From contig DITQ01000006.1 in NCBI GenBank assembly GCA_002422165.1, positions 25,384 to 89,383 of the forward strand: a stretch of DNA of 64,000 bases. Reading direction: 5' to 3'. Positions within the stretch are counted from its first letter, which is position 1, and the number at the start of each line of letters is the position of its first letter. Made by a program: the position numbers and the translations under genes. Below are positions 16,838-42,509 of this stretch, piece after piece. Source of the DNA: Candidatus Pacebacteria bacterium UBA6180 (GTDB taxonomy: Bacteria > Patescibacteriota > Microgenomatia > UBA1400 > PJMF01). The notes below the pieces were generated by a model. That model made no database searches and had not been told where the DNA came from. It saw only the letters and a program-made list of their open reading frames with translations.

Positions 16838-16839
16838 TC

Positions 16840-17841
16840 ATGCTAACTAACCAAGAACCTAAACCAACCAGTTACCTCAAAGCCAGTCAAGGCGATGAGG
16901 TTAAGGTGACCAAGAAGCAAAACTTCAAGGCTGTGGCCATGCTGCTTGGATTCCTAGTCTTCATCATTGGAGCAATTGGCGTCTTCATGATCAGCCAGAA
17001 TCAAGACACTACTCCTGTAGCCCCAACTGCGCCTCAATCACAACCAGCAGCCTTTATCGAGAAAGCTCAAACCTGTACTTTAGTCTTTGACGTCACCGAG
17101 CCAGACAAACTTGCCTGTGGCGAAGTTGGCTGTGAAAGCGACAGTGACTGTGGCGACGAGCTAATTTGCACCACCGCCGATGATGACAAGAAATACTGCT
17201 CCAAAACTGACCACCGAATAGTTGACAGTTGCAAAAAAGATCCTAATGCAGTGAACTGCTGCAGCATCCCTGTAGAAGAACCTCTCGTCTGTGGCGAAGT
17301 TGGCTGTGTTTCCACCGACGATTGTAGTGAAGGATTAGTTTGTATTACCGCCGATGACGACAAGAAATACTGCGCTGATCAAAGATATTTGAGCGCTTGT
17401 ATTGCTGAACCCAATGAGGACAGTTGTTGTAGTGCTCCTCCCACCACTATTACTCCAACTGACGAACCTACAGTAACTCCAACTGATGAGCCCACGGTCA
17501 CTCCAACTGGTACGGTAACTGTTACTAAAACTGTTACTCCTACCACAACTGTGACTAACACTGTAACTCCAAGTGTCACCACTGTTATCACCACCGTTGG
17601 TTGTAACGATGTCTGTCAGGCCAATGCTGACTGCGCCAACATCAGTCACATTTGTTATCAGGGTCAGTGTCGTCTTGACGTCAATCCCACCGATGCTCAA
17701 TGCAGACTGCCAAGCGGTGAGACAACCATTGTTCGTCCAGTCCATGTGCCTACTCAAAGTGGCCCAGCAGACTGGCTCAACTACCTCAAAGCTGGACTAG
17801 GTGTCCTAGGCATTGGCGCCCTACTCCTCCTGCTTTTGTAA
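16840..17841 (+). CDS. paralogous Cys-rich surface protein: N-terminal anchor, two ~35-aa Cys-rich repeats, T/P linker, C-terminal hydrophobic tail
   Basis: Helix AVAMLLGFLVFIIGAIGVFMI. Repeats LACGEVGCESDSDCGDELICTTADDDKKYCS and LVCGEVGCVSTDDCSEGLVCITADDDKKYCA (nt 17112-17198 and 17289-17373). PTDEPTVTPTDEPTVTPTGTVTVT linker. Ends GLGVLGIGALLLLLL. Confidence 0.5.
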   Translation: MLTNQEPKPTSYLKASQGDEVKVTKKQNFKAVAMLLGFLVFIIGAIGVFMISQNQDTTPVAPTAPQSQPAAFIEKAQTCTLVFDVTEPDKLACGEVGCESDSDCGDELICTTADDDKKYCSKTDHRIVDSCKKDPNAVNCCSIPVEEPLVCGEVGCVSTDDCSEGLVCITADDDKKYCADQRYLSACIAEPNEDSCCSAPPTTITPTDEPTVTPTDEPTVTPTGTVTVTKTVTPTTTVTNTVTPSVTTVITTVGCNDVCQANADCANISHICYQGQCRLDVNPTDAQCRLPSGETTIVRPVHVPTQSGPADWLNYLKAGLGVLGIGALLLLLL

Positions 17842-17889
17842 AGAATTTCAGAGAAAAGTCTGCTAAAATTGCGACGGCAAGATGAAAAC

Positions 17890-17963
17890 GCGTGTGTAGC
17901 TCAATTGGTTAGAGCTCCAAGCTTATACCTTGGCGGTTCTAGGTTCGAGTCCTAGCACACGCA
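17890..17963 (+). tRNA. tRNA, anticodon UAU (tRNA-Ile reading AUA) by manual folding
   Basis: 7-bp acceptor stem gcgtgtg/cacacgc, D-arm tagctcaattggttagagc, anticodon stem ccaag/cttgg with loop cttatac (U33, anticodon tat at 17924-17926, A37), T-arm ctagg-ttcgagt-cctag, discriminator A. No encoded CCA. Confidence 0.7.
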
Positions 17964-18007
17964 CGTGGCTAGTCCCCGGAGAGGACAGGTGCTAAAATAA
18001 TAAAGTT

Positions 18008-18406
18008 ATGCTTGTTCGTCTCCTCAAAATTATTGCCATTCTCATCCTGCTTTTTTTCTCTTATCAATTTGCTCGTGCACAGGGTGTTCTTAAAGGGGTC
18101 TGGTTTGAGCAGATAGATGGACAAATCGAAGAATTCAGACACAAAATTACCGGACAAGAATCCTCAAGTATAGACAGAGATCTCGAAAAATTAGGCGAAG
18201 ACGGTCTCAGGCAAGTCAATGTCTTGGCTGACAAGGCCAAAGAGGCCGGCAGTGTCGCCCAAGAATTCGTCCAGGAAGTGGTCAAAATCGACGAAAACAA
18301 GGATCAAAACCTCTCTGAAAAAGCCTTTGAGTATGGCCGCTACATCTACTGCCAGGAAGTGGTTAAACAATACGAAACTTCTTCGAAGGAAAGTGGCACT
18401 TTCTAG
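18008..18406 (+). CDS. small secreted hypothetical protein
   Basis: Signal-peptide-like start MLVRLLKIIAILILLFFSYQFARAQG, then a charged 100-aa region. Confidence 0.35.
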   Translation: MLVRLLKIIAILILLFFSYQFARAQGVLKGVWFEQIDGQIEEFRHKITGQESSSIDRDLEKLGEDGLRQVNVLADKAKEAGSVAQEFVQEVVKIDENKDQNLSEKAFEYGRYIYCQEVVKQYETSSKESGTF

Positions 18407-18422
18407 TTGTCGATTAACTCCC

Positions 18423-19421
18423 TTAAAACAAGTGCTCCTCCAAATAGGCTGGCTGCTCACCAACCCCAGAGGAAATGATTTTCTTCACACTGGATAAAAC
18501 TTCCAAAACTTCCCTGACCTGCATTTCATACTGCGGCAGGGTCAACACGTGAACATTGAATCCCGTGTTAATGGTGAAATAAGCCGGTACGCCCTCGCGC
18601 CGCAACTGGCGCACTGCTTGCATCACCTCGACTGTGCCTGGGTAAAAAAGCAAAATGGTCGGCGAACTAGTAAGCAAAATGCTGTGAAATTCGAGTGCTT
18701 CTGCTTCAGCAAGTTCACCTAAGGCTACAAAGTCTTTGCTTAATATGCTGTTTTTCGCCTGCACTAGCTTGGTCTTCATTCGCTCCTGGCGAGCTGCAAA
18801 AAACGGACTGCTCTGCGCTAAATCGTGCCCCTCTGTCGAACTCATGATTTTTTTGTCCTCGCTGACAATCGCCACCAAATCTCTGATGGGCAGTTGATCG
18901 ACATCCGCAAAACTCTCTGAGTAAGAACTCTCAGAAGAGTCGCCATCCAACCACTCGACGAAGCCACCACAAACACACCTACAAGCTGTACCAGAACCTT
19001 GGCGAGCCAAGATTGATAGTTCTTTTTGACTTAGTTCTAGGCCCAAAGCCTTGGTAGCGGCTATTGTTAAGGCTGCAAAGCCCGAGCCAGAGCTGGATAG
19101 ACCAGTACTTTTGGGAAAATTGTTTTGAGAAACCACGCGAGCAAAGAGGTTTTTTGCAGACAAACCCTGCTCTCTGGCCAGAGCGCGCACGCGATCGAGC
19201 TGCTTGACCACCCGACCAGCTTCACCTTCTTCCACCATTCCGTCGATCGTTATCTGATCTTTATCCAGAGTCTCTAAAAATTCAACCGTGGTAGTGCTGT
19301 GTAGCGAATCCAAAACCATGGACAGACTGCCGTTGGCGGGCAAGCGCAAAACCTTGTCTTTTTTGCCCCAGTATTTGACGAGGGCGATATCGCTGTTGGC
19401 TCGAACGGTTGTTTTAGTCAT
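18423..19421 (-). CDS. mvaD: diphosphomevalonate decarboxylase (MVD)
   Basis: N-terminal IALVKYWGKKD and the GHMP-like P-loop GLSSSGSGFAALTIA are hallmarks of mevalonate diphosphate decarboxylase. Confidence 0.85.
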   Translation of the reverse strand: MTKTTVRANSDIALVKYWGKKDKVLRLPANGSLSMVLDSLHSTTTVEFLETLDKDQITIDGMVEEGEAGRVVKQLDRVRALAREQGLSAKNLFARVVSQNNFPKSTGLSSSGSGFAALTIAATKALGLELSQKELSILARQGSGTACRCVCGGFVEWLDGDSSESSYSESFADVDQLPIRDLVAIVSEDKKIMSSTEGHDLAQSSPFFAARQERMKTKLVQAKNSILSKDFVALGELAEAEALEFHSILLTSSPTILLFYPGTVEVMQAVRQLRREGVPAYFTINTGFNVHVLTLPQYEMQVREVLEVLSSVKKIISSGVGEQPAYLEEHLF

Positions 19422-19423
19422 AT

Positions 19424-20410
19424 TTAATTTTCCAACCTCACTCCTTCAGCATTAGTTTTTACCTCAATAATTTTACCACTAACTGAAGCGATCGCCTGCG
19501 CTACAGCAGCGCTCTGAGCTGGTTTAGCCACAGCCAGCATACAATCTCCCCCTCCTGCGCCAGACAGCTTGGCACCTAGAGCTCCGGCCGCCAAACTGGC
19601 CACAATTAAATTCTCTAATTCGCTGCTACTAACCTGCAGCTGACGCAGTAAATTTTGGTTTGCTGTCATTAACTCGCCCACTTTCGCAAAATCGCTTGCC
19701 GTCAAAGCCGACCTGGCCTGCTCAACCAAATTGCTAATTTGCTCAAAAATGCTGGCGATTTGCTGCTGATTTTCAGAGTAGGCCGCTTGCACCTTACGAA
19801 TTAAAGTGGCTGTATCAGCCTTAATGCCAGTATAGCCAACAACTAACGGCAGCTCATCGATTGCCAAAGGCAACACCGAGGGCTGCTTTGCTGGAGCCTT
19901 TGGAGTGACGTAATACAATGTCCCGCCCCAAATTGCCGCAGCGATGTCGAATCCGGAAGCCACGCCTTGAACGCTCAAAACTACCTGATAACAAAGATCA
20001 AACAATTCTTCGTTGTCTAGTCGTACCCCGTAAAACTCGCCCAACGCTTTGGCCAAAGCCACCGTGCTAGCGCTGCTGGAACCCAAGCCGTAAGAGCTGG
20101 TAAACTCGTTTTTGCTCAAAACTTTGACTCCATGCTCTTGGGGATGGCGCTGCAAGAAAAAACTCAAGCAAGTTTCCAAAAAACTAGCTGCTTTGAGCAA
20201 GTTGCCTTGTCCAAGCTCTTGTCGACTTTTGTGATAATCAAACAAAGCTAAATCCGGCGCTTCGAGACTAAAAAAGTGTTCATCGTTTTCCTCCACCGTC
20301 ACGCTCAGGCGCAGATCCACTGCCGTCACGAGACAAGGATGACCAAAAACCACACTGTGTTCGCCAAAAAGCATTAGTTTTCCCGGGGCAGAGGCTTTGA
20401 CTTTATGCAT
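19424..20410 (-). CDS. mvaK2: phosphomevalonate kinase (GHMP kinase, ERG8-type)
   Basis: APGKLMLFGEHSVVFG, GHMP motif GLGSSSASTVALAKAL, C-terminal GAKLSGAGGGDCMLAV (compare SGAGGGDC of bacterial PMK). Start trimmed to MHKVK to give an 8-nt overlap with the upstream gene. Confidence 0.65.
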   Translation of the reverse strand: MHKVKASAPGKLMLFGEHSVVFGHPCLVTAVDLRLSVTVEENDEHFFSLEAPDLALFDYHKSRQELGQGNLLKAASFLETCLSFFLQRHPQEHGVKVLSKNEFTSSYGLGSSSASTVALAKALGEFYGVRLDNEELFDLCYQVVLSVQGVASGFDIAAAIWGGTLYYVTPKAPAKQPSVLPLAIDELPLVVGYTGIKADTATLIRKVQAAYSENQQQIASIFEQISNLVEQARSALTASDFAKVGELMTANQNLLRQLQVSSSELENLIVASLAAGALGAKLSGAGGGDCMLAVAKPAQSAAVAQAIASVSGKIIEVKTNAEGVRLEN

Positions 20411-21296
20411 TTTGTCCTCCTTTTGACTCACCGAGGCTTGCTCCAAAAAAATCTAAACCCTGCACCTGCAATTGATTCGATAAAAAATGTGAATCGCTGT
20501 GCGTGGCCAGAATATAGCCCGAGCCGGCCGCGACACCGCCAGCACCAGTAATTTTGCAGTGGGCACCTATTGCCTGCAACTTGACAATGATTTTTTTGGC
20601 TGCCTCACCAACCACGCCCAACTCCTCCAGCAAAGCTTGATTTTGGTCAAACAACTGCGGCTGCCAGCGACCTTTTTGCAAATCCTCATGCATCTTGAGG
20701 CTAAGCTCAGCAATTTTGGCAATAGTTGCTGGAGCTTTAGGATTATTTTTGACCAAAGTGACCATTTCTCCAGTTGATTCGCTAGCTGCTCCAGAATTAA
20801 TTAGGAAAAACTTTTGCTCGGTCAAAATTGCTGCTTGCAAAGGAGTGCTCTCTCCACCCTGAAAAGCCAAGAGTCCGCCATAAACCACGATCGCGGGGTC
20901 AGCGCCGCTTGAGCTACCATGGATGAAATTTTCGGCTTCAAGCACCAGCTGATAAAGCTCTGCTTTGGTCAGTTCTCGACCAAAAAAGTTCATTACTGCC
21001 TGGAGCAAGGCAGCCGCCAAAGCCGCCGAAGAGCCTAGTCCCGATTTGACGGGCAGAGTTGAATCAATTTTGATAGCTACAGCCAGATCTTTTCGGCCCA
21101 GCACTCGCGCTGCCAACTGCAAAAGGTGCTGCAAATAAGCGTCGCTTCGCTGCTCCAGCGATAATTCACCTGCGCTCACGCTAGCGCGCACCCCTAAGTC
21201 CAAACTCGCTAATAAAGCCAAGTGACCAAAAACCACGCTGTGTTCACCAGTCAGGATAACTTTGCCTGAAAAAAAGGCCGTGCTCGTCTTAGACAT
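20403..21296 (-). CDS. mvaK1: mevalonate kinase (GHMP kinase)
   Basis: FSGKVILTGEHSVVFG and SGLGSSAALAAALLQAV. 297 aa. The MK versus PMK assignment of the two GHMP genes is by length and C-terminal motif only. Confidence 0.6.
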   Translation of the reverse strand: MSKTSTAFFSGKVILTGEHSVVFGHLALLASLDLGVRASVSAGELSLEQRSDAYLQHLLQLAARVLGRKDLAVAIKIDSTLPVKSGLGSSAALAAALLQAVMNFFGRELTKAELYQLVLEAENFIHGSSSGADPAIVVYGGLLAFQGGESTPLQAAILTEQKFFLINSGAASESTGEMVTLVKNNPKAPATIAKIAELSLKMHEDLQKGRWQPQLFDQNQALLEELGVVGEAAKKIIVKLQAIGAHCKITGAGGVAAGSGYILATHSDSHFLSNQLQVQGLDFFGASLGESKGGQNA

Positions 21297-21576
21297 GGGC
21301 TGCTTTCAGCCCATAAGCAATCACTTCTTCTGGCGCTTCTTTTTTAATCTTGCGCAAGACCAATTTAACTTGGTCGCCAATCTCAAAACTTTCACCGGCC
21401 ACGCCCATCAGGGAAATTTTTTCTTCTCCAAGATCAACAAGTAAATAAGCGTAAGGCAAAAAAGCAACCTGATCGCTGGCCGCCACTTCCATCAATGAGG
21501 CCGAGATAACTGTGCCCTCTTTGCCGAGATATTTTGACCAATTTTTGTTGTTGCGCCAACTTTCAGTTGTCTTCAT
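21289..21576 (-). CDS. DUF35-like OB-fold protein (putative scaffold of the thiolase/HMG-CoA synthase complex)
   Basis: 95-aa ORF between thiolase and MK. YLGKEGTVISASLMEVA...YAYLLVDLGEEKISLMGVAGESFEIGDQVKLV resembles the OB-fold half of DUF35 proteins. No Zn-ribbon cysteines are present. Confidence 0.45.
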   Translation of the reverse strand: MKTTESWRNNKNWSKYLGKEGTVISASLMEVAASDQVAFLPYAYLLVDLGEEKISLMGVAGESFEIGDQVKLVLRKIKKEAPEEVIAYGLKAAHV

Positions 21577-21594
21577 ATTCTTTTTTGTTTATTA

Positions 21595-22710
21595 TTAAAT
21601 TCCAAGCACATTGACTACCGCCGTCGCTCCGCTGCCGCCGACGTTGTGGGTTAGGCCGCGCTCGATTTGGCCGGCTTCAATCATCGCGCTTAAAAAAGAG
21701 ACTTGCTTGACGCCAGTGGCGCCGACCGGGTGTCCGCAAGCTTTGAGACCACCGGAAGGATTGATGATCACTTGCCCGCCGTAAGTTGCCTGGCCAGCGG
21801 CGATGGCACTTGCTGCCTCGCCTTTGGCAAAAAAGCCCAAATCCTCAGTCGCTAAAATCTCGGCAATGCTAAAACAATCGTGCACTTCGGCCGCTTGAAT
21901 ATCTTTTTGTCTCAATTTGGCCATTTTTAGCGCCTTAGAAGCTGCAATTCTTGTGGCAGCTAACTCGCCTAGGTCCTGACGGTCTTGGAGAGCTAAGGTA
22001 TCCTGAGCGTGACCAAAACCAAGCAATTTGGTTTTTCTCGAGGAGGGCTTACTGCTGAGAATCACCGCCGCCACCCCATCAGTGATGGGCGAGCAATCAA
22101 GCAAGCGCAGAGGGTCAGCTACCATGACGGAGCTGCCAACCTGATCGAGAGTAAATTCTTTGTGAAACTGAGCAGCAGGGTTAGTCATGGCGTGATGGTG
22201 GTTTTTGACTACCACGCTAGAAAGCTGCTCGCGAGTCGTCCCATAGCGCTTGATGTGATAATTAGCCAAAACCGCGTACAGGGCTGGAAAAGTTGAGCCA
22301 TATTCTTTGTCGCGACTAGCCGCAGTAGCCAAAATGGTGCTGGTTTCGCTGCTGCTGACGTCAGTCATTTTTTCCACACCCAGAACCAAAACTGTCTGGT
22401 AAAGTCCACTACGGATGGCCTGTTCTGCTGCGATTACTGCCAGGCCGCCAGAGGCACAGGCTCCCTCCACCCGCATCGCTGGTGGAAAATGTGCAAACTG
22501 CTCGCTGACTAGAGCTCCGAGATGACGTTGTTCGTTGAAGCTCCCACCGGCTTTATTGGCCACAAAAATGGCGTCTATCTCGGCAGGATCAAGTTCGCTG
22601 TCAGCAAGCACGCCAGCCACACCTTCTTTGACCAGATCGGTCAAACTTTGAGTCCATAATTCGCCAAATTTACCTATATATCTACCAATTATTTTTGTCT
22701 CAGTGTGCAT
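21595..22710 (-). CDS. thiolase (acetyl-CoA C-acetyltransferase), short archaeal-type
   Basis: Active-site region VEGACASGGLAVIAAEQAIRSG, C-terminal GHPVGATG and NVGGSGATAVV. 371 aa. Overlaps the HMGCS gene by 11 nt. Confidence 0.85.
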   Translation of the reverse strand: MHTETKIIGRYIGKFGELWTQSLTDLVKEGVAGVLADSELDPAEIDAIFVANKAGGSFNEQRHLGALVSEQFAHFPPAMRVEGACASGGLAVIAAEQAIRSGLYQTVLVLGVEKMTDVSSSETSTILATAASRDKEYGSTFPALYAVLANYHIKRYGTTREQLSSVVVKNHHHAMTNPAAQFHKEFTLDQVGSSVMVADPLRLLDCSPITDGVAAVILSSKPSSRKTKLLGFGHAQDTLALQDRQDLGELAATRIAASKALKMAKLRQKDIQAAEVHDCFSIAEILATEDLGFFAKGEAASAIAAGQATYGGQVIINPSGGLKACGHPVGATGVKQVSFLSAMIEAGQIERGLTHNVGGSGATAVVNVLGI

Positions 22711-23764
22711 TTTGCTCCCTCATTTTGTGGTAAGTCGCTAGATCAATTTCCTGCAGAGCAGCAATTTGCTCGGCCAGGGTGTGAGTGAATTTTTGGCGAA
22801 ACTTAGGCAAAGCAGCTGTCGTTTCAAACAAAAAGGCATCAGCACCAGCACCTGAACCATAGGAGCAAAGCAAAATTTTGGCACCAGCTGGAGCCACATC
22901 AAGCACAGCAGTCAAAGCCAGTAGAGAGGCGGCGGCATAGGTGTTACCAATTTTTTTGACGACTAGACTGGGAGCGAGCTGCTCACGACTAAAACCAAGT
23001 TGTTTGGCGATGGCTTGAGGAAATTTGCCGTTAGGAGTGTGAAAAATGCAGAAATCTAACTCGCTGGGCGCAAGCTTGGTCTGCTCGAGCAAGCGGCGAG
23101 TCGCCATAGTGACGTGCTTGAAATAGGCTGGCTCACCAGTGAAGCGACCGAAGTGTTCTGGATAGGATTGCCCGGGCTTGCGCCAAAAATCTGGCGTGTC
23201 GGTCGCCACCGAGGTGGTAGCGAGCAAATTAGCTAAAGTTGGCTGCGAAGCGCTGTCCGCAGCGAGGATGAAGGCGGCGGCGCCAGCCGCCGCAGTGTAT
23301 TCCAGAGCGTCTCCAGGACGGGCTTGGGCGGTATCCGCGCCGATCGCCAGCGTAGCGTGAGCCATCTCTGAATTGACGTAAGCCGCAGAAATCTGCAAAG
23401 CCTGCGAGCCAGCTTTGCAAGCGAACTGCAAATCAGCCATGCTTAGGAAGTCACTCAATCCCAAGGCTTCCTTGACCACTGCCCCAGAAGGTTTGACTGC
23501 GTAAGGGTGGCTTTCGCTGCCGATGAAAAGTGTTTCGATCTCTGTTGTTTGACCACCTGCGCTTCGAAAGCGTTCTAATGCTTGATAAGCAGCAGCAGTG
23601 GACAGGGTAACTGTGTCCTCGTCAATTGCGGGGATAGTTTTGGAAGAAACACCTAAAGCTTTGGCCATGCTTCCGTCTTTACCCTGGCTAACCGCGATTG
23701 TCGAAGTGCTGACTTTTTTATCTGGAATAGCGGCGCCATAGGCAACGATGCCAACTTGTTTCAT
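22700..23764 (-). CDS. hydroxymethylglutaryl-CoA synthase (short, archaeal-type)
   Basis: MKQVGIVAYGAAIP start, GSESHPYAVKP, FACKAGSQAL (catalytic Cys context). 354 aa, the size of the archaeal-type HMGCS that pairs with thiolase and DUF35. Confidence 0.8.
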   Translation of the reverse strand: MKQVGIVAYGAAIPDKKVSTSTIAVSQGKDGSMAKALGVSSKTIPAIDEDTVTLSTAAAYQALERFRSAGGQTTEIETLFIGSESHPYAVKPSGAVVKEALGLSDFLSMADLQFACKAGSQALQISAAYVNSEMAHATLAIGADTAQARPGDALEYTAAAGAAAFILAADSASQPTLANLLATTSVATDTPDFWRKPGQSYPEHFGRFTGEPAYFKHVTMATRRLLEQTKLAPSELDFCIFHTPNGKFPQAIAKQLGFSREQLAPSLVVKKIGNTYAAASLLALTAVLDVAPAGAKILLCSYGSGAGADAFLFETTAALPKFRQKFTHTLAEQIAALQEIDLATYHKMREQNAH

Positions 23765-23766
23765 AA

Positions 23767-25026
23767 TTATTTTCTTTTTCTCGCTAACTTTTGGTGAGCT
23801 GCTGCCAGAGAGTGACTGCTAAGCGCTGCCAAGCCAGAGATTTCTGCTGCCAGGACTCCGGTAGCCAAAATTGCTGCCAGTTTACTCGGGTTTGGATCAT
23901 CGTCATTTTGTAAAATTAAACTGCGCACTTCTTTTTGAGCAGGCAAAGCCGTCCCTCCGCCCACACTGCCCAGAGGCAAATCGGATAAATGCACTGCGAA
24001 ATATAAGCCGGTACTGCCATCTGCCATTAAAGCTTCTTCGACGATGGTGTTACCTTGACTAGCTTCGACGATGTGAGCGCTGTCCTGGCCAGTAGCCAGA
24101 TAAAAAGCAGCTGTCACGTTAGCAAATTGCATGTTGTGATCACTCGAACCAGCTAGCGTCGAGCCTAGTTGATTTTTACTGTGGTGAGTGGCAAGCAGTT
24201 TTTTGGAGCTGGTTTTGAGAACTTCCTCCAAAATTTCTTCGCTAAGCAAGACTTCCGCCTGAGCGCTGTAGCCGCGACCAAGTATTTGATTGATGTGAGA
24301 AGCTTTTTTGTCTGTGCAGACGTTGCTACTGAGACTCAGCATCTGGATGCCTGGGTAGGTGTTCAAAAAATCCTCCCACAACTTCTGCAAAGCGATGGTG
24401 ACCATGTTCATCCCCATCGCCAAATCGGTGTCAAAACTTAAACGAACAAACACTTGTCGCCCACGCACGAAGCTCTGTAAAGCTAGAAATTTGAGATGAG
24501 AACTTCCATCTTCAGTGACTTGACGAATTTTTGTCCTTGTTTCAGCCAGATCTAGGAATTCTGCAAAGGCAAAGGCCTGCTTGCCATCAGCAAAAGCAAA
24601 GCTGGGCGCGCGAGTCATGCCGGCATTTTTGACGAAAAGTTGCGCCCCACCAGCTTGATTAATAGCCTTGAGACCGCGACTAACACTAGCCACGAGTGCT
24701 CCCTCGCTGGTAGCGAGCGGCACGAAAGAATTCTCTCTCTGGCCGTATTGCTCGAATTCCACAGGCCCAGCTAAGCCGAGCGGCAAACTGATGGCCCCAA
24801 CCATGTTTTCACAGTTGTGCGCATTGGCCGCTGCTAAATCAGCATCGACCGCAAAAAGATGCGGAGTTGGTGCAGCTTTCCAGCTTGAAGCCAATTGTTT
24901 TTGGCGATCCCTGATCAGCTGCAGATCATCTGCGTTAGTATTGTTGTTTTTGAAAAACGACATTGCATGATAATTAGTCGCAAAAAGGAACAAAATCATG
25001 CAAAAGAAAGTTTTAGGCTCTTTCAA
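23767..25026 (-). CDS. HMG-CoA reductase, class I
   Basis: DLAMGMNMVT (class I DAMGMNM motif), SLSSNVCTDKKAS, GSVGGGT. The N-terminal 40 aa are hydrophobic, so the true start may be a later Met. Confidence 0.85.
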   Translation of the reverse strand: MKEPKTFFCMILFLFATNYHAMSFFKNNNTNADDLQLIRDRQKQLASSWKAAPTPHLFAVDADLAAANAHNCENMVGAISLPLGLAGPVEFEQYGQRENSFVPLATSEGALVASVSRGLKAINQAGGAQLFVKNAGMTRAPSFAFADGKQAFAFAEFLDLAETRTKIRQVTEDGSSHLKFLALQSFVRGRQVFVRLSFDTDLAMGMNMVTIALQKLWEDFLNTYPGIQMLSLSSNVCTDKKASHINQILGRGYSAQAEVLLSEEILEEVLKTSSKKLLATHHSKNQLGSTLAGSSDHNMQFANVTAAFYLATGQDSAHIVEASQGNTIVEEALMADGSTGLYFAVHLSDLPLGSVGGGTALPAQKEVRSLILQNDDDPNPSKLAAILATGVLAAEISGLAALSSHSLAAAHQKLARKRK

Positions 25027-25049: not shown

Positions 25050-25913
25050 GTGAATTATATGGATAATTTAAATAATGAAATCACACAAAATAATAATTTG
25101 CCAGAAAAAAAAGCAGTTAAGCCAAAAGTCGTACTTCTTATTGTTTCACTTATAATTTTAGAATTGTGCTCGTTAATTCTAGCTGCAACCTATGGCTATA
25201 GGCAGGGGCTAAGAAGTGAGGTAGGGAAAAATCCAGCATCAGATACTACTCAAATAAACATGAAAGCTGATTTAATCAAGCCAACTTCTGTGCCAGGACT
25301 AGTTTATCCGCTATCAACAAAGCCAGAAGACACAACTTACGATTACAGTGAAAATTTAAAAATAAATCTAAGCAGCATAGAAGAATTAAAAACTGGCTAT
25401 CCAAGCTCCAAAGAGAACTTGGGCTACGAGGTTTTTCTTTTTGCTGATCTGACCGAAGATTCTTTTAGTGGCCAAATGCTAACACAAAATGTAAATTTTT
25501 TATTCAAAAATTATCCTCAAATGAGAGTTTGGTATTTACACACTGTCCTTCCCTACAGAGAGAATCCCAACCTAAAAGGAGCAATCGGAGTCTTAAAATG
25601 CCTCAATGATCAAGACTCAGTTTGGAAAAACATGGACGATTTGGTAAAAGAAAAAGGTCGGCATAATTATATTTATCAACTTGAAAATCAAGAAACGTAC
25701 ACCAGGTGCATTACAGAAATTAACCAAAATGATCAATATTTTCAAGAAAAAATTATAAACAGCCAAGAACTAATGGCTAAATACGGGATATCTGGCATAC
25801 CATCTATCATTGTCGTATCAGAAAATAATCCATCTATAGGAAATAGAATTATTGGTGCTTTACCAAGAGATGAATTTGTTCAGCGAATTGAAGAGATCAT
25901 CAGGGAAAATTAA
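25050..25913 (+). CDS. membrane-anchored thioredoxin-fold (DsbA-like) protein lacking the CxxC motif
   Basis: Helix LLIVSLIILELCSLILAA. C-terminal YGISGIPSIIVVSEN resembles the DsbA cis-Pro loop region, but the CxxC position is occupied by FADLTEDSFSG. Confidence 0.3.
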   Translation: MNYMDNLNNEITQNNNLPEKKAVKPKVVLLIVSLIILELCSLILAATYGYRQGLRSEVGKNPASDTTQINMKADLIKPTSVPGLVYPLSTKPEDTTYDYSENLKINLSSIEELKTGYPSSKENLGYEVFLFADLTEDSFSGQMLTQNVNFLFKNYPQMRVWYLHTVLPYRENPNLKGAIGVLKCLNDQDSVWKNMDDLVKEKGRHNYIYQLENQETYTRCITEINQNDQYFQEKIINSQELMAKYGISGIPSIIVVSENNPSIGNRIIGALPRDEFVQRIEEIIREN

Positions 25914-26987
25914 ATGTTTGAAATGCTAAAAAAACTCCAAGCAACCAAAAACATCACCGATCCTTTCTTGCTAGAGCTTCTAGATGAGGAATCCCAAAAG
26001 TTTCAAGGTCAAACCCTTAGTCAAGCCGCCTTCGCCAAGCTCAAAAACTTCATCATCAGCGGCAAAAGTGTCCGTTCTGGCCTGTTTTTACTAGTTGCAG
26101 AGAGTTTCAAACGAGAAAACTACCTCAAGAAACGCAGTGATTTGATCCTCGTGGCCGCCGCCCTAGAACTCATTCACTCTGGACTCTTGATTCACGATGA
26201 CATCATCGACCAAGATGAGTTGCGCCGCGGTCAAGATTCGATCTGGCACCAGTACGCCAAGGAGGCTAGGGAGGGAAAAATCAACAATCCTCAAAATTAT
26301 GGCGAGAGCTTGGCTATCTGCCTTGGCAGCCTGACTCAATATTTGGCCCAGCTAGCTCTAGAAAGACTTTCTCTCCTGCCTGCCACGACGCAAAAAGTCA
26401 TCAAGCGAACAATTAACCAAGAAATTATCAAAACTTATTTCGCTGAAATGCTAGATTCCAAAATCACCTTGCAAACAAACGCGCCAACTCCTAGCGAAGT
26501 CGAGGAAATGTACCTATTCAAAACTGCTCGCTACACTTTTTCCCTTCCTTTGCAACTAGCCAGTATCATCAATCAACAATCCACAAAACAAGTAGAAAAA
26601 ATAGTCAAAATTGGCGAAAAACTAGGCTTGATTTTTCAAATCAAAGATGACGAAATCAGCTTGTTTGCCAGCGCTGAAAAATCTGGCAAGAGCTTTGCTT
26701 CAGACATCAGAGAAGGCAAAAAAACCCTTCACTATCTCTATGTACTAGAGTCAGCAAACAGTTTAGAAAAAGAGTTTCTGCAAGAATTTTATGGCCAAAA
26801 AGAAATCGACCAGCAAAAAATCGAGCAAATTCAAAAACTTTTCAAGAAGCATGCCAATGCAAAAATAGAAGCTTTGAGCGAAAAATTAGCCGCAGAGGCT
26901 GCCAGCTTAATTGCTGAAATCAGTTCAGAAAAAACCAGAGAGCTGTTGACGACAACCCTAAACTTCAATCTAACAAGAGAATCTTGA
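25914..26987 (+). CDS. trans-polyprenyl diphosphate synthase (polyprenyl synthetase family)
   Basis: First DDxxD LIHDDIIDQDELRRGQ, second DDxxD FQIKDDEISLF, K/R-rich substrate-binding region. Confidence 0.8.
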   Translation: MFEMLKKLQATKNITDPFLLELLDEESQKFQGQTLSQAAFAKLKNFIISGKSVRSGLFLLVAESFKRENYLKKRSDLILVAAALELIHSGLLIHDDIIDQDELRRGQDSIWHQYAKEAREGKINNPQNYGESLAICLGSLTQYLAQLALERLSLLPATTQKVIKRTINQEIIKTYFAEMLDSKITLQTNAPTPSEVEEMYLFKTARYTFSLPLQLASIINQQSTKQVEKIVKIGEKLGLIFQIKDDEISLFASAEKSGKSFASDIREGKKTLHYLYVLESANSLEKEFLQEFYGQKEIDQQKIEQIQKLFKKHANAKIEALSEKLAAEAASLIAEISSEKTRELLTTTLNFNLTRES

Positions 26988-38614: not shown

Positions 38615-39034
38615 ATGAAAAAGATCATCTTTAGCACCTTGTTAAGCCTGACACTGATCTTTTTTGCCAGTCAAAGCGTCTTGGCGCAGTCAGTCTTTGG
38701 CCCCATCGAAGCACCTCAGGGCGTATCACAGTTAAATGATGACGCTGGAGGCATCGGCCTACTGCTATTCATCTCCAACATGATCAAAATGCTTTCAATC
38801 GTAGCCGGCATCTGGGTAATGTTCAACTTCGTTATTGCCGGCTTTACCTACATTACTTCAGCAGGCGACAGCGGCGCTTACAGCAAGATTGGAGAGAAGC
38901 TCTCTTTCAGTGTTACCGGTTTATTGCTAATCGTAGCGGCCTACACCATCACTGGCGTAATTAGTCTGCTCATTTTTGGCGACGCCACCTACATTCTCAA
39001 TCCAGACATACCAACTGCAATCCCAGTACCCTAA
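38615..39034 (+). CDS. T4SS-pilin-like small protein, paralog 2
   Basis: Signal peptide MKKIIFSTLLSLTLIFFASQSVLA-QS. Core IVAGIWVMFNFVIAGFTYITSAGDSGAYSKIGEKLSFSVTGLLLIVAAY. Confidence 0.6.
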   Translation: MKKIIFSTLLSLTLIFFASQSVLAQSVFGPIEAPQGVSQLNDDAGGIGLLLFISNMIKMLSIVAGIWVMFNFVIAGFTYITSAGDSGAYSKIGEKLSFSVTGLLLIVAAYTITGVISLLIFGDATYILNPDIPTAIPVP

Positions 39035-39035
39035 T

Positions 39036-39398
39036 ATGGCAAACATCGGCTCCATCGAACCCATCAGCGAAGCAAGAGCTCCAGAGATCGTTAACTCTAC
39101 TGGCGAAGGCTTTCTTGCTTCCCTGGAACTCTACATCGGCGACATTATTGGCGCCTTAACCGCCCTAGCAGCCTTGTTTTTTATCGTGTACTCCTTCTTA
39201 GCCGCTTTCGAGTGGGCTACGGCTGGTGGTGACAGCGGTAAAGTCGAAAAAGCTAAAAACAGATTTATCTGGGGCACACTAGGCCTGGTCTTGATCGTTG
39301 CCAGCTACTCGATCGTTGGTCTAATTGGCAGTTTAGTTGGCATTAGCATTCTAGATCCTGCAGAACTAATTAATAACATTGTTCCTGGAGGACCATAA
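39036..39398 (+). CDS. T4SS-pilin-like small protein, paralog 3 (no N-terminal signal peptide)
   Basis: MANIGSIEP... core LAALFFIVYSFLAAFEWATAGGDSGKVEKAKNRFIWGTLGLVLIVASY. Confidence 0.55.
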   Translation: MANIGSIEPISEARAPEIVNSTGEGFLASLELYIGDIIGALTALAALFFIVYSFLAAFEWATAGGDSGKVEKAKNRFIWGTLGLVLIVASYSIVGLIGSLVGISILDPAELINNIVPGGP

Positions 39399-39890: not shown

Positions 39891-39895
39891 TTATT

Positions 39896-40237: not shown

Positions 40238-40284
40238 AAGTTAACTAAAATTATTAGACAGTTAAAAATTATAAGGAGTTAATT

Positions 40285-40689: not shown

Positions 40690-40714
40690 AGCCAATCATT
40701 TTATACGAATTATC

Positions 40715-41265: not shown

Positions 41266-41943
41266 TTATTTACCAAACCTTCGCTGTCTCAAAACATACT
41301 CAGCCAGCGCTTTTTCGAACTCAGCTTCATCAAAATCTGGCATCAAGACATCAGTAAAATATAGTTCGGTATAAACAGTCTGCCAGGTCAAGAAGCCAGA
41401 GAGGCGCTGCTCTCCGCCAGGACGGATTAGCAGGTCTGGATCTGGCAAATCAATTTTCTGCTTGGTGTCCATAAATTGCTCGAAGTTTTCCTCGCCTTGT
41501 TGCACTGCCCTCCTGATCTCGTCTCGACCGCCGTAGTTGAGAGCGAAGGTCACTGTCAATTTTTGGTTGTTCACTGTTTCTTTGATCCAAAAATCCACCC
41601 CGTCCTGGATATCTTTTGGAAAACGACTCATGTCGCCAATAACAGCCACTCGCACTTGCTTTTCGTGCAGTCTTTTGGCGCTGGTCTGAAAAGTTTCGCG
41701 AAAAAGATCCATTATTCCAGAAATTTCTTCTGGAGGACGCTGCCAATTTTCAGTACTGAAGGCCCACAAGGTCAAATATTTAATATTCTTGGCAATGGCA
41801 AAATCTGCCAAGCGCTCGATCATTTCCTCAGCAACCTTGCGGTGGCCTCTAATGATGGCCAACCCGTTTTTTCTAGCCCAACGACGATTGCCGTCCATGA
41901 TAATAGCAACGTGAGCAGGAACTAATGAATTTATTTTTTGCAT
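41266..41943 (-). CDS. uppS: undecaprenyl diphosphate synthase (cis-prenyltransferase)
   Basis: HVAIIMDGNRRWARKNGL...GH N-terminal signature and C-terminal RFGK. Confidence 0.9.
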   Translation of the reverse strand: MQKINSLVPAHVAIIMDGNRRWARKNGLAIIRGHRKVAEEMIERLADFAIAKNIKYLTLWAFSTENWQRPPEEISGIMDLFRETFQTSAKRLHEKQVRVAVIGDMSRFPKDIQDGVDFWIKETVNNQKLTVTFALNYGGRDEIRRAVQQGEENFEQFMDTKQKIDLPDPDLLIRPGGEQRLSGFLTWQTVYTELYFTDVLMPDFDEAEFEKALAEYVLRQRRFGK

Positions 41944-42509
41944 ACTTGTTCGATCTTTCTAATTAAGTCTGACTCATCTAAAAACAAATTTAACCAAGGA
42001 GTTATTTGTCTGTCCCCCAGTTGCTTGGCTTTGACATCTGTCCAACTTAGCCAAACATAATTCTCTACTTCGTCTGGGTTTAGATCAATTTTTAATTTAA
42101 CAAAGGCTTTGTCGTCCAAAACAGTCACAAAAAAATGATCGAACTCGTTTTCGGCAAAACCATTTTCGCATGCCACCTGATAATCCAAAACAGCCACCTC
42201 TTCAAGCAGCCAGTTTTCTTGCCAATCGACGCCCAGCTCTTCCTTCGCTCGACGCTTTACGCAAGCGACGTGAGTTTCTTCGGGGATTAAATTGGCGCAA
42301 AGAGTGTTGGCCCATTGCCCAGCACCAACAATCTTTTTACCACTTCGCTGCTGAAGCAAGAGCTTGAGAGAACCATCACTTGAGCGATGAAACAAAAACC
42401 AAGACACAGCCTGGTGTTTTTGACCTGAGCCGCGATGTGCAGAGATGAGATCGACGTGTCCAATCACCTCGTCTCTTTCGTTAACTAAATTTACTTGACG
42501 CATAAGCAA
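41931..42509 (-). CDS. idi: isopentenyl-diphosphate delta-isomerase, type 1 (Nudix fold)
   Basis: HQAVSWFLFHRSSDGSLKLLLQQRSGKKIVGAGQWANTLCANL parallels E. coli Idi [37 protein letters not shown]. Includes the catalytic Cys context. Confidence 0.75.
   Translation of the reverse strand: MLMRQVNLVNERDEVIGHVDLISAHRGSGQKHQAVSWFLFHRSSDGSLKLLLQQRSGKKIVGAGQWANTLCANLIPEETHVACVKRRAKEELGVDWQENWLLEEVAVLDYQVACENGFAENEFDHFFVTVLDDKAFVKLKIDLNPDEVENYVWLSWTDVKAKQLGDRQITPWLNLFLDESDLIRKIEQVCKK

What the first reader, a model, noticed from the sequence alone, without database searches (positions are those of the whole stretch)
18423..25026. Complete mevalonate operon with archaeal-type thiolase/HMG-CoA synthase/DUF35 triad in a bacterial, GC-rich block
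Seven co-directional, overlapping genes encode class I HMGR, a short (354 aa) HMGCS, a short (371 aa) thiolase, a 95-aa OB-fold protein resembling DUF35 (the scaffold that channels thiolase/HMGCS in archaea), MK, PMK and MVD. Together with idi (type 1), uppS and a polyprenyl synthetase elsewhere in the window, this gives a complete MVA-based isoprenoid route. The block is markedly more GC-rich (sampled about 53%) than the dnaA/dnaN/yidC region (about 33-38%) or the glycan locus (about 32%). That suggests acquisition from a higher-GC, possibly archaeal, donor. The DUF35 homolog appears truncated, with no Zn-ribbon cysteines.
Basis: partly seen in the sequence, partly recalled or inferred. Interest (0 to 1): 0.6.

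Follow-up and report, generated by a model that had tools for sequence, protein, structure and literature searches.

The report
CPR-type mevalonate operon, streamlined variant
This is the mevalonate (isoprenoid-precursor) operon already known from Candidate Phyla Radiation bacteria, inherited vertically and not recently acquired; it has two apparently undescribed quirks, a scaffold protein lacking its zinc ribbon and a decarboxylase lacking the family's "invariant" catalytic aspartate.

Summary
The seven co-directional minus-strand genes are real and lie exactly at 18423-25026. They encode class-I HMGR, archaeal-type HMGCS, archaeal-type thiolase, a 95-aa DUF35 OB-fold protein, two GHMP kinases and an MVD-family decarboxylase. 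The gene set, its archaeal affinity and its presence in most Microgenomates were published by Hoshino & Gaucher in 2018 (PMC6107057).

The horizontal-transfer reading is not supported:
- GC3 of the operon (0.45-0.53) sits mid-range for the window (0.28-0.67).
- Operon GC tracks host GC in 17 relatives.
- The operon and its flanking orphan genes are collinear in about 10 CPR species.

Three points go beyond that paper and the other literature I could search:
- The DUF35 partner lacks the Cys4 zinc ribbon in every CPR homolog examined. Archaeal and Gemmatimonadales loci keep it. The protein is still most similar, by profile and by predicted fold, to the DUF35 chain of the archaeal complex 6ESQ.
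- The decarboxylase has Asn in place of the catalytic Asp (TINTGFN instead of TxDAGPN) in the window and all 120 nearest clusters. Its closest solved relative is a Chloroflexi phosphomevalonate decarboxylase.
- Neither kinase is a canonical PMVK; both are mevalonate-kinase paralogs.

The order of the last two pathway steps therefore remains open.

The parts
23767..25026 (-). HMG-CoA reductase, class I (419 aa from a TTG start). The start is uncertain: an ATG at residue 22 would leave a more plausible intergenic gap.
   Evidence: PF00368 318 bits. TIGR00533 (NADPH, class I) 305 bits against TIGR00532 (class II) 23 bits. Orthologs at 64-67% identity sit in the same position in relatives.
22700..23764 (-). 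Archaeal-type HMG-CoA synthase (354 aa).
   Evidence: TIGR00748 364.5 > 353.35 and NF003274 411 > 244, against 120 bits for the bacterial model. It aligns end to end with 6ESQ chain I, E=1.2e-92, with the GSESHPY, FACKAG, FHxPNGKF and GNTY motifs conserved.
21595..22710 (-). Archaeal-type acetoacetyl-CoA thiolase (371 aa). It overlaps the end of HMGCS by 11 nt.
   Evidence: NF004720 419.6/420 and NF053570 383 bits. Best PDB hit is 6ESQ chain A, E=5.2e-79. The ACASG, EVHDCF and CGHP motifs are kept. CPR-specific loop deletions relative to archaeal and Gemmatimonadales enzymes.
21289..21576 (-). Minimal DUF35 protein (95 aa): an N-terminal helical (S/Y)WR segment plus an OB fold, with no zinc ribbon. 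Presumed scaffold of the thiolase/HMGCS complex.
   Evidence: PF01796 26.8 bits against a gathering score of 27.1. A CPR-only profile hits 6ESQ_E at E=1.6e-9. The AF2 model has pLDDT 80 and its top Foldseek hits are 6ESQ_F/G/E, probability 1.00, TM 0.65. A clean deletion of about 34 columns removes CxxC...CxxC. None of 65 homologs has a CxxC.
20403..21296 (-). K297: a divergent MVK-family GHMP kinase (297 aa). Candidate second kinase (PMVK or isopentenyl-phosphate kinase function), assigned by elimination only.
   Evidence: TIGR00549 152 bits, below the 163 cut-off; the PMVK model gives 48 bits. The family profile scores 110-148 bits to 11 solved MVKs against 73 and 34 to PMVKs. Public names for orthologs are 'hypothetical protein' or 'GHMP kinase N-terminal domain-containing protein'. 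27% identical to K328.
19424..20410 (-). K328: mevalonate kinase (328 aa from the ATG at 20410; the mechanical ORF extends to a TTG at 20446).
   Evidence: TIGR00549 202.5 > 163. Best PDB hit is the 'Mevalonate kinase' entry 6MDE, E=2.7e-40. The family profile scores 184-190 bits to its three best MVK entries and 91-157 bits to the other solved MVKs, against 114 and 49 to PMVKs. Orthologs are named mevalonate kinase by NCBI. The public gene call starts at the ATG.
18423..19421 (-). MVD/PMD-family decarboxylase (332 aa) with Asn285 in place of the catalytic Asp. Substrate (mevalonate diphosphate or mevalonate phosphate) unresolved.
   Evidence: TIGR01240 245 > 171. Best PDB hit is the Anaerolinea PMD 6N0X, E=2e-70, ahead of E. 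faecalis MDD at 2.6e-56 (identity of 6N0X from PMC9254496). The motif reads TINTGFN where others read TxDAGPN. All 120 nearest clusters have it. 12 of 151 representatives at 50% identity have Asn. Specificity positions read K21/R27/T193/H196.
25914..26987 (+). trans-Polyprenyl diphosphate synthase. It is the divergent neighbour of the operon in relatives, where it abuts HMGR directly or is separated by unrelated inserts.
   Evidence: PF00348 161 bits. Its best NCBIfam hits after an encapsulin-cargo polyprenyl transferase model are short-chain FPP/GGPP-type synthases, all below cut-off. Synteny in L001-L004, L006, L008, L009, L018 and L032.
41266..42509 (-). IDI-1-like NUDIX gene (41931-42509) overlapping uppS (41266-41943). 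These are the downstream users of IPP.
   Evidence: uppS: TIGR00055 221 > 110. NUDIX gene: best hit is IPP isomerase NF002995 at 108 bits, below the 127 cut-off.

Best explanation
The locus is the lineage-typical mevalonate operon of a Microgenomates/Pacebacteria-like CPR bacterium. It was inherited vertically within that radiation.

Upper pathway (inferred function, strong homology). The thiolase condenses two acetyl-CoA. Archaeal-type HMGCS adds a third. Class-I HMGR reduces HMG-CoA to mevalonate. By analogy with the solved Methanothermococcus complex, the thiolase and HMGCS are probably held together by the small DUF35 protein, so that the unfavourable thiolase step is pulled by HMGCS. In CPR this scaffold has been pared down to an N-terminal helical segment plus the OB fold, with the zinc ribbon deleted.

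Lower pathway (partly inferred). K328 is mevalonate kinase. The MVK paralog K297 supplies a second phosphorylation. The MVD-family enzyme decarboxylates, using Asn where all characterised relatives use Asp. Whether the order is kinase then decarboxylase (MVAPP route) or decarboxylase then kinase (MVAP route) is not settled by sequence.

The IPP feeds the adjacent trans-prenyl synthase and the idi-uppS pair 16 kb away. From general knowledge, this probably supplies undecaprenyl phosphate for envelope glycan synthesis.

The operon's somewhat higher GC reflects Ala/Gly-rich, conserved enzymes in a compositionally patchy genome, not foreign origin.
For: - Gene identities.
- CPR affiliation and conserved synteny including flanking orphan genes.
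- Published description of the same gene set as ancestral to CPR, with phylogenies congruent with the species tree: PMC6107057.
- GC3 mid-range. Operon GC tracks host GC. Low-GC insert at the PPS/HMGR junction.
- DUF35 homology to the scaffold chain of 6ESQ by profile and by predicted fold.
- Ribbon deletion throughout CPR, with conserved residues: R8, Y42, Y88 and K91 are invariant in 50 sequences that are 28-75% identical to the window protein.
- Catalytic motifs of thiolase and HMGCS retained.
- Tight overlaps between genes are consistent with co-translation of complex subunits.
- The Asn-type decarboxylase motif YFTINTGFNVHVLTLP is strongly conserved over 120 clusters down to 60% identity, which argues for selection on a working enzyme.
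- The D281N mutant of S. solfataricus DMD keeps decarboxylase activity (PMC9254496).
Against: - No biochemical data exist for any CPR enzyme of this operon.
- The zinc ribbon is present in every solved DUF35-containing thiolase complex (PMC12960953 and PMC6392133), so complex formation without it is an extrapolation.
- The equivalent Asp-to-Asn change killed the MBD homolog (PMC9254496).
- The Asp has been proposed to stabilise a carbocation by its charge and lies near a metal site (PMC7414129).
- No canonical PMVK and no IPK were found in the window.
- The IDI assignment is below the model cut-off.
- Absence of the MEP pathway could not be checked genome-wide.
Confidence: 0.8

Rival explanations
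1. Recent horizontal acquisition of the whole block from a higher-GC, possibly archaeal, donor.
For: The block is 7 GC points above the rest of the window. HMGCS, thiolase and DUF35 are of the archaeal type.
Against: GC3 is mid-range and other housekeeping genes are much higher. The same operon with the same flanking orphan genes occurs in about 10 CPR species. Operon GC follows host GC from 0.34 to 0.58. The closest archaeal HMGCS is only 42-45% identical, against 70-75% for CPR. Archaeal DUF35 has the ribbon and CPR DUF35 never does. Published trees show CPR monophyly (PMC6107057).
Confidence: 0.04
2. The lower pathway is not the textbook MVK-PMVK-DMD route. The Asn-type enzyme acts on mevalonate 5-phosphate, like its closest solved relative (the Chloroflexi PMD). 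An MVK paralog, or an IPK encoded elsewhere, then phosphorylates isopentenyl phosphate.
For: The best structural relative is the Anaerolinea PMD. Three of four discriminating positions (R27, T193, H196) match the PMD. The engineered PMD variant 6N0Z differs from wild-type 6N0X in the aligned region only by N-to-K and H-to-M, and CPR has just one of these two changes. No canonical PMVK is present. IPK homologs are reported in Microgenomates (PMC6107057). CPR has more recently been placed as sister to Chloroflexota (PMC11052028).
Against: Lys21, a diphosphate-binding residue of MDDs and one of the two switch positions, is present in all 120 nearest homologs. Two kinases are conserved in the operon, as the MVAPP route requires. 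No IPK is in the 64-kb window. The signature positions form a continuum among the 151 nearest representatives, so they are weak predictors.
Confidence: 0.25
3. The Asn-type 'decarboxylase' has lost decarboxylation and works as a 3-kinase, as in the Thermoplasma-type pathway. The last step would then be spontaneous or done by another enzyme.
For: The catalytic Asp is missing. Loss of this Asp is what distinguishes the non-decarboxylating homolog M3K, and D281T/V convert a DMD into a kinase (PMC9254496).
Against: The specific D281N substitution retained DMD activity. M3K scores are poor (NF040848 36 bits against a cut-off of 440). There is no second DMD/MBD homolog in the operon or window. More distant CPR operons with the same architecture keep Asp (L019, L020, L030).
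Confidence: 0.07
4. The 95-aa ORF is a decaying remnant, or the triad has been repurposed for non-mevalonate acyl-transfer chemistry, as in PhlABC and MucABC.
For: The ORF falls just below the Pfam threshold and lacks a whole domain. Bacterial HMGS/ACAT/DUF35 complexes are known to have been repurposed (PMC12960953).
Against: A short, ribbon-less ORF follows the thiolase in every CPR locus whose sequence extends past the thiolase, with invariant residues and a confident fold. The repurposed complexes lack the HMGCS E-C-H-N tetrad and the thiolase HDxF motif, and both are intact here. The genes sit in an operon with HMGR, kinases and a decarboxylase.
Confidence: 0.05

Closest known systems
CPR mevalonate gene cluster described by Hoshino & Gaucher 2018 (PMC6107057)
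   Same: Same gene set: archaeal-type AACT, HMGS, HMGR-I, two GHMP kinases, a DPMD-family enzyme, and an IDI-1-like gene nearby. Same lineage (Microgenomates-type CPR). Linked to prenyl synthase genes.
   Different: That paper does not mention DUF35. It labels the late enzymes MVK, PMVK and DPMD without comment on the missing catalytic Asp. It reports typical synteny with cis-IPPS; here the adjacent gene is a trans-IPPS, and cis-IPPS (uppS) with idi lies 16 kb away.
Archaeal thiolase/HMGCS/DUF35 channelling complex, Methanothermococcus thermolithotrophicus (PDB 6ESQ/6ET9; Voegeli et al. 2018, as summarised in PMC12960953 and PMC6392133)
   Same: All three subunits have this complex as their best solved match (E=5e-79, 1e-92, and 1.6e-9 by profile). 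Gene order is HMGCS-thiolase-DUF35. Catalytic motifs, including the thiolase HDxF, are conserved.
   Different: The DUF35 subunit is 95 aa instead of about 130 and lacks the Cys4 zinc ribbon. The thiolase has several CPR-specific loop deletions. Assembly and channelling are untested.
Phosphomevalonate decarboxylase of Anaerolinea thermophila (PDB 6N0X; Thomas et al. 2019, cited in PMC9254496) and classical MDDs (for example E. faecalis 5V2L)
   Same: Full-length homology (241 bits to the PMD, 194 bits to the MDD). The Ser/Arg catalytic loop GSGxACR is conserved. R27, T193 and H196 match the PMD. K21 matches MDDs.
   Different: [quoted passage not shown]
Repurposed bacterial HMGS/ACAT/DUF35 acyltransferases (PhlABC of Pseudomonas, MucABC of Streptococcus)
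   Same: Three-subunit architecture of the same families in a bacterium. The DUF35 chains are among the top fold matches.
   Different: Those complexes have lost the HMGCS catalytic tetrad and the thiolase HDxF motif and have kept the zinc ribbon. The window proteins show the reverse pattern.

Membership tests
Archaeal-type thiolase/HMGCS/DUF35 complex (6ESQ type) | HMGCS of the archaeal subfamily with the catalytic Glu/Cys/His/Asn residues | tested here: met
   TIGR00748 364.5 > 353.35. Alignment to 6ESQ_I shows GSESHPY, FACKAG, FHTPNGKF and GNTY conserved.
Archaeal-type thiolase/HMGCS/DUF35 complex (6ESQ type) | Archaeal-type thiolase with the CxS, HDxF and GHx motifs | tested here: met
   6ESQ_A E=5.2e-79. 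ACASG, EVHDCF and CGHP are conserved in all CPR sequences aligned. Motif definitions from PMC12960953.
Archaeal-type thiolase/HMGCS/DUF35 complex (6ESQ type) | DUF35 subunit: C-terminal OB fold (PF01796) | tested here: met
   The single sequence is borderline (26.8 vs 27.1 bits). The CPR profile gives E=1.6e-9 to 6ESQ_E. The AF2 model's top hits are the 6ESQ DUF35 chains, TM 0.65.
Archaeal-type thiolase/HMGCS/DUF35 complex (6ESQ type) | DUF35 subunit: N-terminal rubredoxin-like Cys4 zinc ribbon | tested here: not met
   A deletion of about 34 columns removes CxxC...CxxC in all 15 CPR sequences, while four archaeal sequences keep it. 0 of 65 homologs have a CxxC. Gemmatimonadales keep it.
Archaeal-type thiolase/HMGCS/DUF35 complex (6ESQ type) | Three adjacent, co-oriented genes | tested here: met
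   22700-23764, 21595-22710 and 21289-21576 overlap or are separated by 18 nt. The order HMGCS-thiolase-DUF35 holds in every related locus that extends past the thiolase.
Archaeal-type thiolase/HMGCS/DUF35 complex (6ESQ type) | Physical heteromeric complex with a shared CoA site and intermediate channelling | not testable with these tools
   Needs co-purification, a structure, or at least multimer modelling.
Diphosphomevalonate decarboxylase (MDD/DMD) | Family HMM above the curated cut-off | tested here: met
   TIGR01240 245.4 > 171.35.
Diphosphomevalonate decarboxylase (MDD/DMD) | Catalytic Asp (S. epidermidis D283, E. faecalis D282, S. solfataricus D281) | tested here: not met
   Asn285 in TINTGFN. 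The same in 120 of 120 nearest clusters. 135 Asp against 12 Asn among 151 representatives at 50% identity.
Diphosphomevalonate decarboxylase (MDD/DMD) | Diphosphate-side residues Lys21, Arg193 and Met196 (S. epidermidis numbering) | tested here: inconclusive
   Lys21 is present. Thr and His replace Arg193 and Met196. These positions vary widely among near relatives.
Phosphomevalonate decarboxylase (Chloroflexi type) with IPK | PMD-like phosphate-pocket residues and a partner isopentenyl phosphate kinase | tested here: inconclusive
   R27, T193 and H196 match 6N0X, but position 21 is Lys, not Asn or Leu (Table 4 of PMC3857490). No AA-kinase/IPK gene among the window ORFs scanned. The rest of the genome was not available.
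Phosphomevalonate kinase (TIGR01220 Gram-positive type; NF040957 archaeal type; TIGR01219 ERG8 type) | Family HMM above cut-off for either kinase | tested here: not met
   K328: 116 < 166, 102 < 500, 27 < 377. K297: 48 < 166, 25 < 500, and no ERG8-model match listed. Both family profiles score higher to MVK than to PMVK structures.
Mevalonate kinase (TIGR00549) | Family HMM above cut-off, and GHMP motifs I-III with the catalytic Asp | tested here: met
   K328 scores 202.5 > 163.05. K297 narrowly fails at 152.1. Both carry GKxxLxGEH, GLGSS, SGxD and GAGG motifs.
CPR-type MVA cluster (Hoshino & Gaucher 2018) | CPR host, monophyly with other CPR, and vertical inheritance | tested here: met
   Nearest loci by HMGCS are CPR MAGs (70-75% identity to the window) and most carry the collinear operon. 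Collinear flanks. No formal tree was built here; that rests on PMC6107057.

The most novel reading that the evidence does not exclude
A large CPR clade may run a lower mevalonate pathway that is not any of the described routes.
- The decarboxylase works without the catalytic aspartate. It may be a natural intermediate between phosphomevalonate and diphosphomevalonate decarboxylases, or a promiscuous enzyme.
- It is paired with a second kinase that arose independently by duplication of mevalonate kinase, not from a canonical PMVK or IPK.
- The upper pathway uses a minimal, zinc-free DUF35 scaffold.

Together this would be a living snapshot of the PMD-to-DMD and MVK-to-PMK transition proposed in PMC9254496.
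Probability: 0.2. Interest if true: 0.7.

Novelty: new variant of a known kind. Interest (0 to 1): 0.42.

Why it matters
The operon as such is textbook for CPR since 2018, and the horizontal-transfer story should be dropped. The details still bear on open questions.
- A natural DUF35 lacking the zinc ribbon shows which part of the scaffold is dispensable for the thiolase/HMGCS complex, if the complex forms.
- A large, conserved clade with Asn at the 'invariant' catalytic Asp is a natural experiment on the disputed role of that residue: hydrogen-bond orientation of the 3'-OH, or charge stabilisation and metal binding.
- With no canonical PMVK and a PMD-like/MDD-like hybrid pocket, the route CPR bacteria use to make IPP is unassigned. 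That affects evolutionary scenarios built on 'CPR has the eukaryote-type pathway'.
- Automated annotation currently hides all three points. It labels these proteins 'hypothetical protein', 'mevalonate kinase' and 'diphosphomevalonate decarboxylase'.

Tried and rejected
- Exact look-up of the window HMGCS in the contig collection found nothing.
- Voegeli et al. 2018 (PMC5879682), Thomas et al. 2019 (PubMed 31268677) and Krepkiy & Miziorko 2004 (PMC2279928) are not held. The roles of the zinc ribbon and of the switch residues were therefore taken from secondary sources and from the 6N0X/6N0Z sequence difference.
- No supplementary tables are held for Hoshino & Gaucher, so I could not learn which CPR gene they called PMVK.
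- Promoter and terminator scans were at chance level (10 found vs 7.6 expected; 7 vs 11.8) and are uninformative.
- The signature-residue approach to MVAPP versus MVAP specificity proved non-discriminating, because the positions form a continuum among near relatives.
- My first read of the catalytic column was one position off and was corrected.
- Motif-from-memory arguments for calling K328 a PMVK (GAGGGDC, SGFDIAAA) conflict with the HMM and profile evidence and with the GEY variant in one K297 ortholog (L012). I therefore do not rely on them.
- The repurposed acyltransferase reading and the pseudogene reading of the 95-aa ORF were considered and rejected (see rival explanations).

Full report
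**1. Observation**

Seven minus-strand ORFs occupy 18423-25026 exactly as described.
- They are tightly packed. HMGCS and the thiolase overlap by 11 nt, and the 95-aa ORF and K297 by 8 nt.
- K297 and K328 overlap by 8 nt if K328 starts at the ATG at 20410. Public gene calls for the identical sequence use that start.

Pfam and NCBIfam assign them as follows.

| ORF | Assignment | Key scores |
|---|---|---|
| 23767-25026 | class-I HMGR | PF00368 318 bits; class I 305 vs class II 23 bits |
| 22700-23764 | archaeal-type HMGCS | TIGR00748 364.5 > 353.35; bacterial model 120 bits |
| 21595-22710 | archaeal-type thiolase | NF004720 419.6/420; archaeal acetyl-CoA acetyltransferase model (NF053570) 383 bits |
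| 21289-21576 | DUF35 OB-fold protein | PF01796 26.8 vs 27.1 |
| 20403-21296 | GHMP kinase (K297) | MVK model 152 < 163 |
| 19424-20410 | GHMP kinase (K328) | MVK model 202.5 > 163 |
| 18423-19421 | MVD-family decarboxylase | TIGR01240 245 > 171 |

The 'short' lengths of HMGCS and thiolase are simply the archaeal-type lengths. Both align end to end with chains I and A of the Methanothermococcus complex 6ESQ (E=1.2e-92 and 5.2e-79).

The window also holds:
- a trans-prenyl synthase divergent from HMGR (25914-26987)
- uppS (41266-41943), overlapping an IDI-1-like NUDIX gene (41931-42509)
- dnaA, dnaN and yidC
- no MEP gene and no IPK among the ORFs scanned

**2. Whose genome, and is the block foreign?**

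A scan of one genome per species found 33 related loci.
- The closest, at 70-75% HMGCS identity, are CPR MAGs and the complete 853-kb genome CP011212.1. Their proteins are labelled Pacebacteria.
- Gemmatimonadales are at 47-48% and archaea at 42-45%.

In about 10 of these genomes the whole neighbourhood is collinear at 50-80% amino-acid identity. The order is prenyl synthase (-), then HMGR-HMGCS-thiolase-DUF35-K297-K328-decarboxylase, then three orphan genes that match no Pfam family.

Compositionally the block is 49.5% GC against 42.3% for the rest of the window.
- GC3 of the seven genes (0.45-0.53) lies in the middle of the window's range of 0.28-0.67.
- The ATP-dependent ligase, a Fic protein, valS and recF are all higher.
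- The MVA enzymes are 20-25% Ala+Gly, which raises GC at codon positions 1 and 2.
- Across 17 relatives the operon GC follows the flank GC from 0.34 to 0.58, with an offset of -0.02 to +0.06, positive in 16 of the 17.

The real compositional outliers are low-GC genes. The 33.8%-GC ORF at 25050-25913 sits in a slot that is empty (15-44 bp) in six relatives and holds unrelated genes in three others.

Hoshino & Gaucher (PMC6107057) found the following:
- The CPR enzymes are monophyletic.
- The early-step trees are congruent with the CPR species tree.
- The pathway is present in most Microgenomates.

Taken together with that finding, recent acquisition from a higher-GC or archaeal donor is not supported. 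An ancient relationship with archaeal enzymes is real, and already published.

**3. The DUF35 partner**

In every CPR locus that extends past the thiolase, the ORF after it is about 95-105 aa from its likely start. It has no CxxC motif. The four archaeal loci have the canonical 131-136 aa protein with CxxC...CxxC.

The alignment shows one clean deletion of about 34 columns. It removes the ribbon and keeps the N-terminal (Y/F/N)WR segment and the OB fold.

A database-wide profile search found 65 clusters of this short form.
- None has a CxxC.
- Most have no source name, or are called hypothetical protein.
- Four residues are invariant among 50 sequences that are 28-75% identical to the window protein.

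Homology to the scaffold is solid.
- A CPR-only profile hits 6ESQ chain E at E=1.6e-9.
- An AlphaFold model has pLDDT 80.
- Its three best Foldseek matches are the DUF35 chains of 6ESQ (probability 1.00, TM 0.65). The next matches are the DUF35 subunits of MucABC and benzoylsuccinyl-CoA thiolase, and then Sso Trf.
- The literature describes a zinc ribbon in the DUF35 proteins of MucABC and PhlABC and in the S. solfataricus DUF35 family member 3IRB.

The Gemmatimonadales loci, which are non-CPR bacteria with the same triad, also keep the ribbon. Among the carriers sampled, ribbon loss is therefore specific to CPR.

The CPR thiolases keep the ACASG, EVHDCF and CGHP motifs. They share several loop deletions relative to the thiolases of ribbon-bearing lineages. 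Whether those loops contact the ribbon could not be tested.

The repurposed bacterial complexes PhlABC and MucABC lost the HMGCS tetrad and the HDxF motif. The window proteins keep both, so a mevalonate function is the natural reading.

No held paper combines DUF35 with CPR. The broader five-term search could not exclude such papers, because its ranking hides two-term matches.

**4. The late enzymes are not simply 'MK, PMK, MVD'**

*Kinases*
- K328 passes the MVK equivalog and best matches solved MVK entries such as 6MDE. NCBI names its orthologs mevalonate kinase.
- K297 is a 27%-identical paralog. It narrowly fails the MVK model, and its orthologs are 'hypothetical protein' or 'GHMP kinase N-terminal domain-containing protein'.
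- Neither reaches a PMVK model cut-off.

Family profiles built from the loci score as follows.

| Family profile | Solved MVKs | Solved PMVKs |
|---|---|---|
| K297 | 110-148 bits | 73 and 34 bits |
| K328 | 91-190 bits (best three 184-190) | 114 and 49 bits |

The operon therefore contains two MVK-family paralogs and no canonical PMVK. Assigning K297 as the second kinase is an inference by elimination.

*Decarboxylase*

Its best solved relative is 6N0X (E=2e-70), ahead of E. faecalis MDD (2.6e-56). PMC9254496 identifies 6N0X as the Anaerolinea thermophila phosphomevalonate decarboxylase.

In the printed alignments the engineered variant 6N0Z differs from 6N0X at only two positions, YWGN to YWGK and GH to GM. 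I read these as specificity-switch positions.

The window enzyme and 14 CPR homologs were compared at the discriminating positions.

| Position (S. epidermidis numbering) | MDDs (E. faecalis, S. aureus) | Anaerolinea PMD | Window enzyme |
|---|---|---|---|
| 21 | Lys | Asn | Lys |
| 27 | Ile | Arg | Arg |
| 193 | Arg | Thr | Thr |
| 196 | Met | His | His |

Ten of the 14 CPR homologs share the window's pattern. The other four differ at one or two of these positions.

More strikingly, the catalytic motif T-x-D-A-G-P-N reads T-I-N-T-G-F-N (Asn285).
- This holds in the window and in ten related loci.
- It holds in all 120 nearest 90%-identity clusters, down to 60% identity.
- More distant CPR operons (L019, L020, L022, L030) keep Asp.
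- Among the 151 nearest 50%-identity representatives of the family, 135 have Asp. Twelve have Asn, and Thr follows it in eleven of them.

The literature is divided on what this implies.
- In S. solfataricus DMD, D281T and D281V yield a kinase, but D281N retains DMD activity.
- D309N inactivates the MBD homolog.
- PMC7414129 proposes that the Asp orients the 3'-OH by hydrogen bonding and may stabilise a carbocation. It also places metal ions near the Asp.

The strong conservation of YFTINTGFNVHVLTLP argues for a working enzyme. The most likely reading is an active decarboxylase with an Asn-based site.

The signature positions vary continuously among near relatives. They therefore cannot decide between MVAPP and MVAP as substrate.

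**5. Mechanism, with status of each step**

- Strong homology, function inferred: acetyl-CoA to acetoacetyl-CoA (thiolase), to HMG-CoA (HMGCS), to mevalonate (HMGR-I).
- By analogy only: thiolase and HMGCS are bridged by the minimal DUF35, so that the endergonic thiolase step is coupled to HMGCS.
- HMM-supported: K328 phosphorylates mevalonate.
- Inferred: K297 and the Asn-type decarboxylase complete the route to IPP in one of two orders.
- Established family functions: IPP/DMAPP feed the adjacent trans-prenyl synthase and uppS.

**6. Comparison and novelty**

The locus is a member of the CPR-type MVA cluster described in 2018. Against the 6ESQ-type complex it meets every sequence-level criterion except the zinc ribbon.

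As an MDD it passes the family model but fails the catalytic-Asp criterion. As a PMD it is inconclusive. No canonical PMVK is present.

Three points were not found described in the accessible literature, which lacks several key subscription papers:
- the clade-wide ribbon-less scaffold
- the Asn-type decarboxylase
- the double-MVK arrangement

They are variants of known kinds. Their interest is moderate, mainly for specialists in mevalonate-pathway enzymology and evolution.

**7. Limits**

- All functional statements are computational.
- No formal phylogeny was built here; I rely on identity hierarchies, synteny and the published trees.
- Identification of the 6N0Z differences as engineered switch positions is my reading of the two deposited sequences. 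It rests on the statement in PMC9254496 that Thomas et al. changed PMD specificity by mutagenesis.

Noticed in passing
window 17890-17964 (+): A tRNA-Ile with anticodon UAU (ARAGORN and Rfam, 71.7 bits) lies between the orphan genes flanking the operon. From memory, most bacteria instead decode AUA with a lysidine-modified CAU tRNA.
   Followed up: no
window 25050-25913 (+); L001, L006 and L009 at the same junction: The junction between the prenyl synthase and HMGR is a variable slot. The two genes are adjacent (15-44 bp) in six relatives. Elsewhere the slot holds unrelated low-GC genes: racemase-like in L001 and L009, hydrolase-like in L006. In the window it holds a thioredoxin-like 287-aa ORF (GC 33.8%, GC3 0.28) with no homolog in any fetched locus.
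   Followed up: partly
window 38615-41208 (+), 54748-56919 (-), 58381-59232 (-), 60332-63895 (-): Six tandem small paralogous genes lie at 38615-41208. The three that were scanned match PF18895 (T4SS pilin), one of them only weakly. All six share a GGD/AGD-x-GK/KK-x-E motif. Nearby are a TraG/VirB4-like ATPase, a PrgI-like protein and a 1187-aa protein with a weak M23 peptidase match. Together they look like the Patescibacteria type IV secretion locus, wrapped around the dnaA-dnaN-yidC region.
   Followed up: no
window 29936-31789 (-) and 33865-34956 (-): An ATP-dependent (archaeal/eukaryotic-type) DNA ligase and a Fic/DOC protein have the highest GC3 in the window (0.67), well above the mevalonate operon. 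By contrast the glycosyltransferase-rich region at 3-13 kb has GC3 of 0.28-0.38. The genome is compositionally very patchy.
   Followed up: partly
window 15452-18406 (+); same positions in L001, L007, L008, L009 and L018: Three ORFs of 461, 333 and 132 aa next to the operon have no Pfam match. They are nevertheless conserved in sequence (30-59% identity to the window ORFs) and in position across CPR relatives. They form a syntenic unit with the mevalonate genes, and their function is unknown.
   Followed up: no
window 24963-25026 (-): The HMGR ORF begins at a TTG only 23 bp from the divergent neighbour. It encodes a hydrophobic N-terminal stretch (FFCMILFLFATNY). An ATG at residue 22 is an alternative start. 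Public gene calls use the long form, and relatives align from about residue 7.
   Followed up: partly
L012:10474-11358 (+): The K297 ortholog of a Magasanikbacteria MAG has GEY instead of GEH in GHMP motif I. From memory, Tyr at this position is typical of phosphomevalonate kinases. This hints that the K297 family may be the one drifting toward a PMVK-like function.
   Followed up: no
P0217, P0230, P0276, P0356: Several of the nearest family representatives are 608-646 aa, with the decarboxylase domain in the C-terminal half. This suggests fusions with another protein, perhaps a kinase, in some lineages.
   Followed up: no
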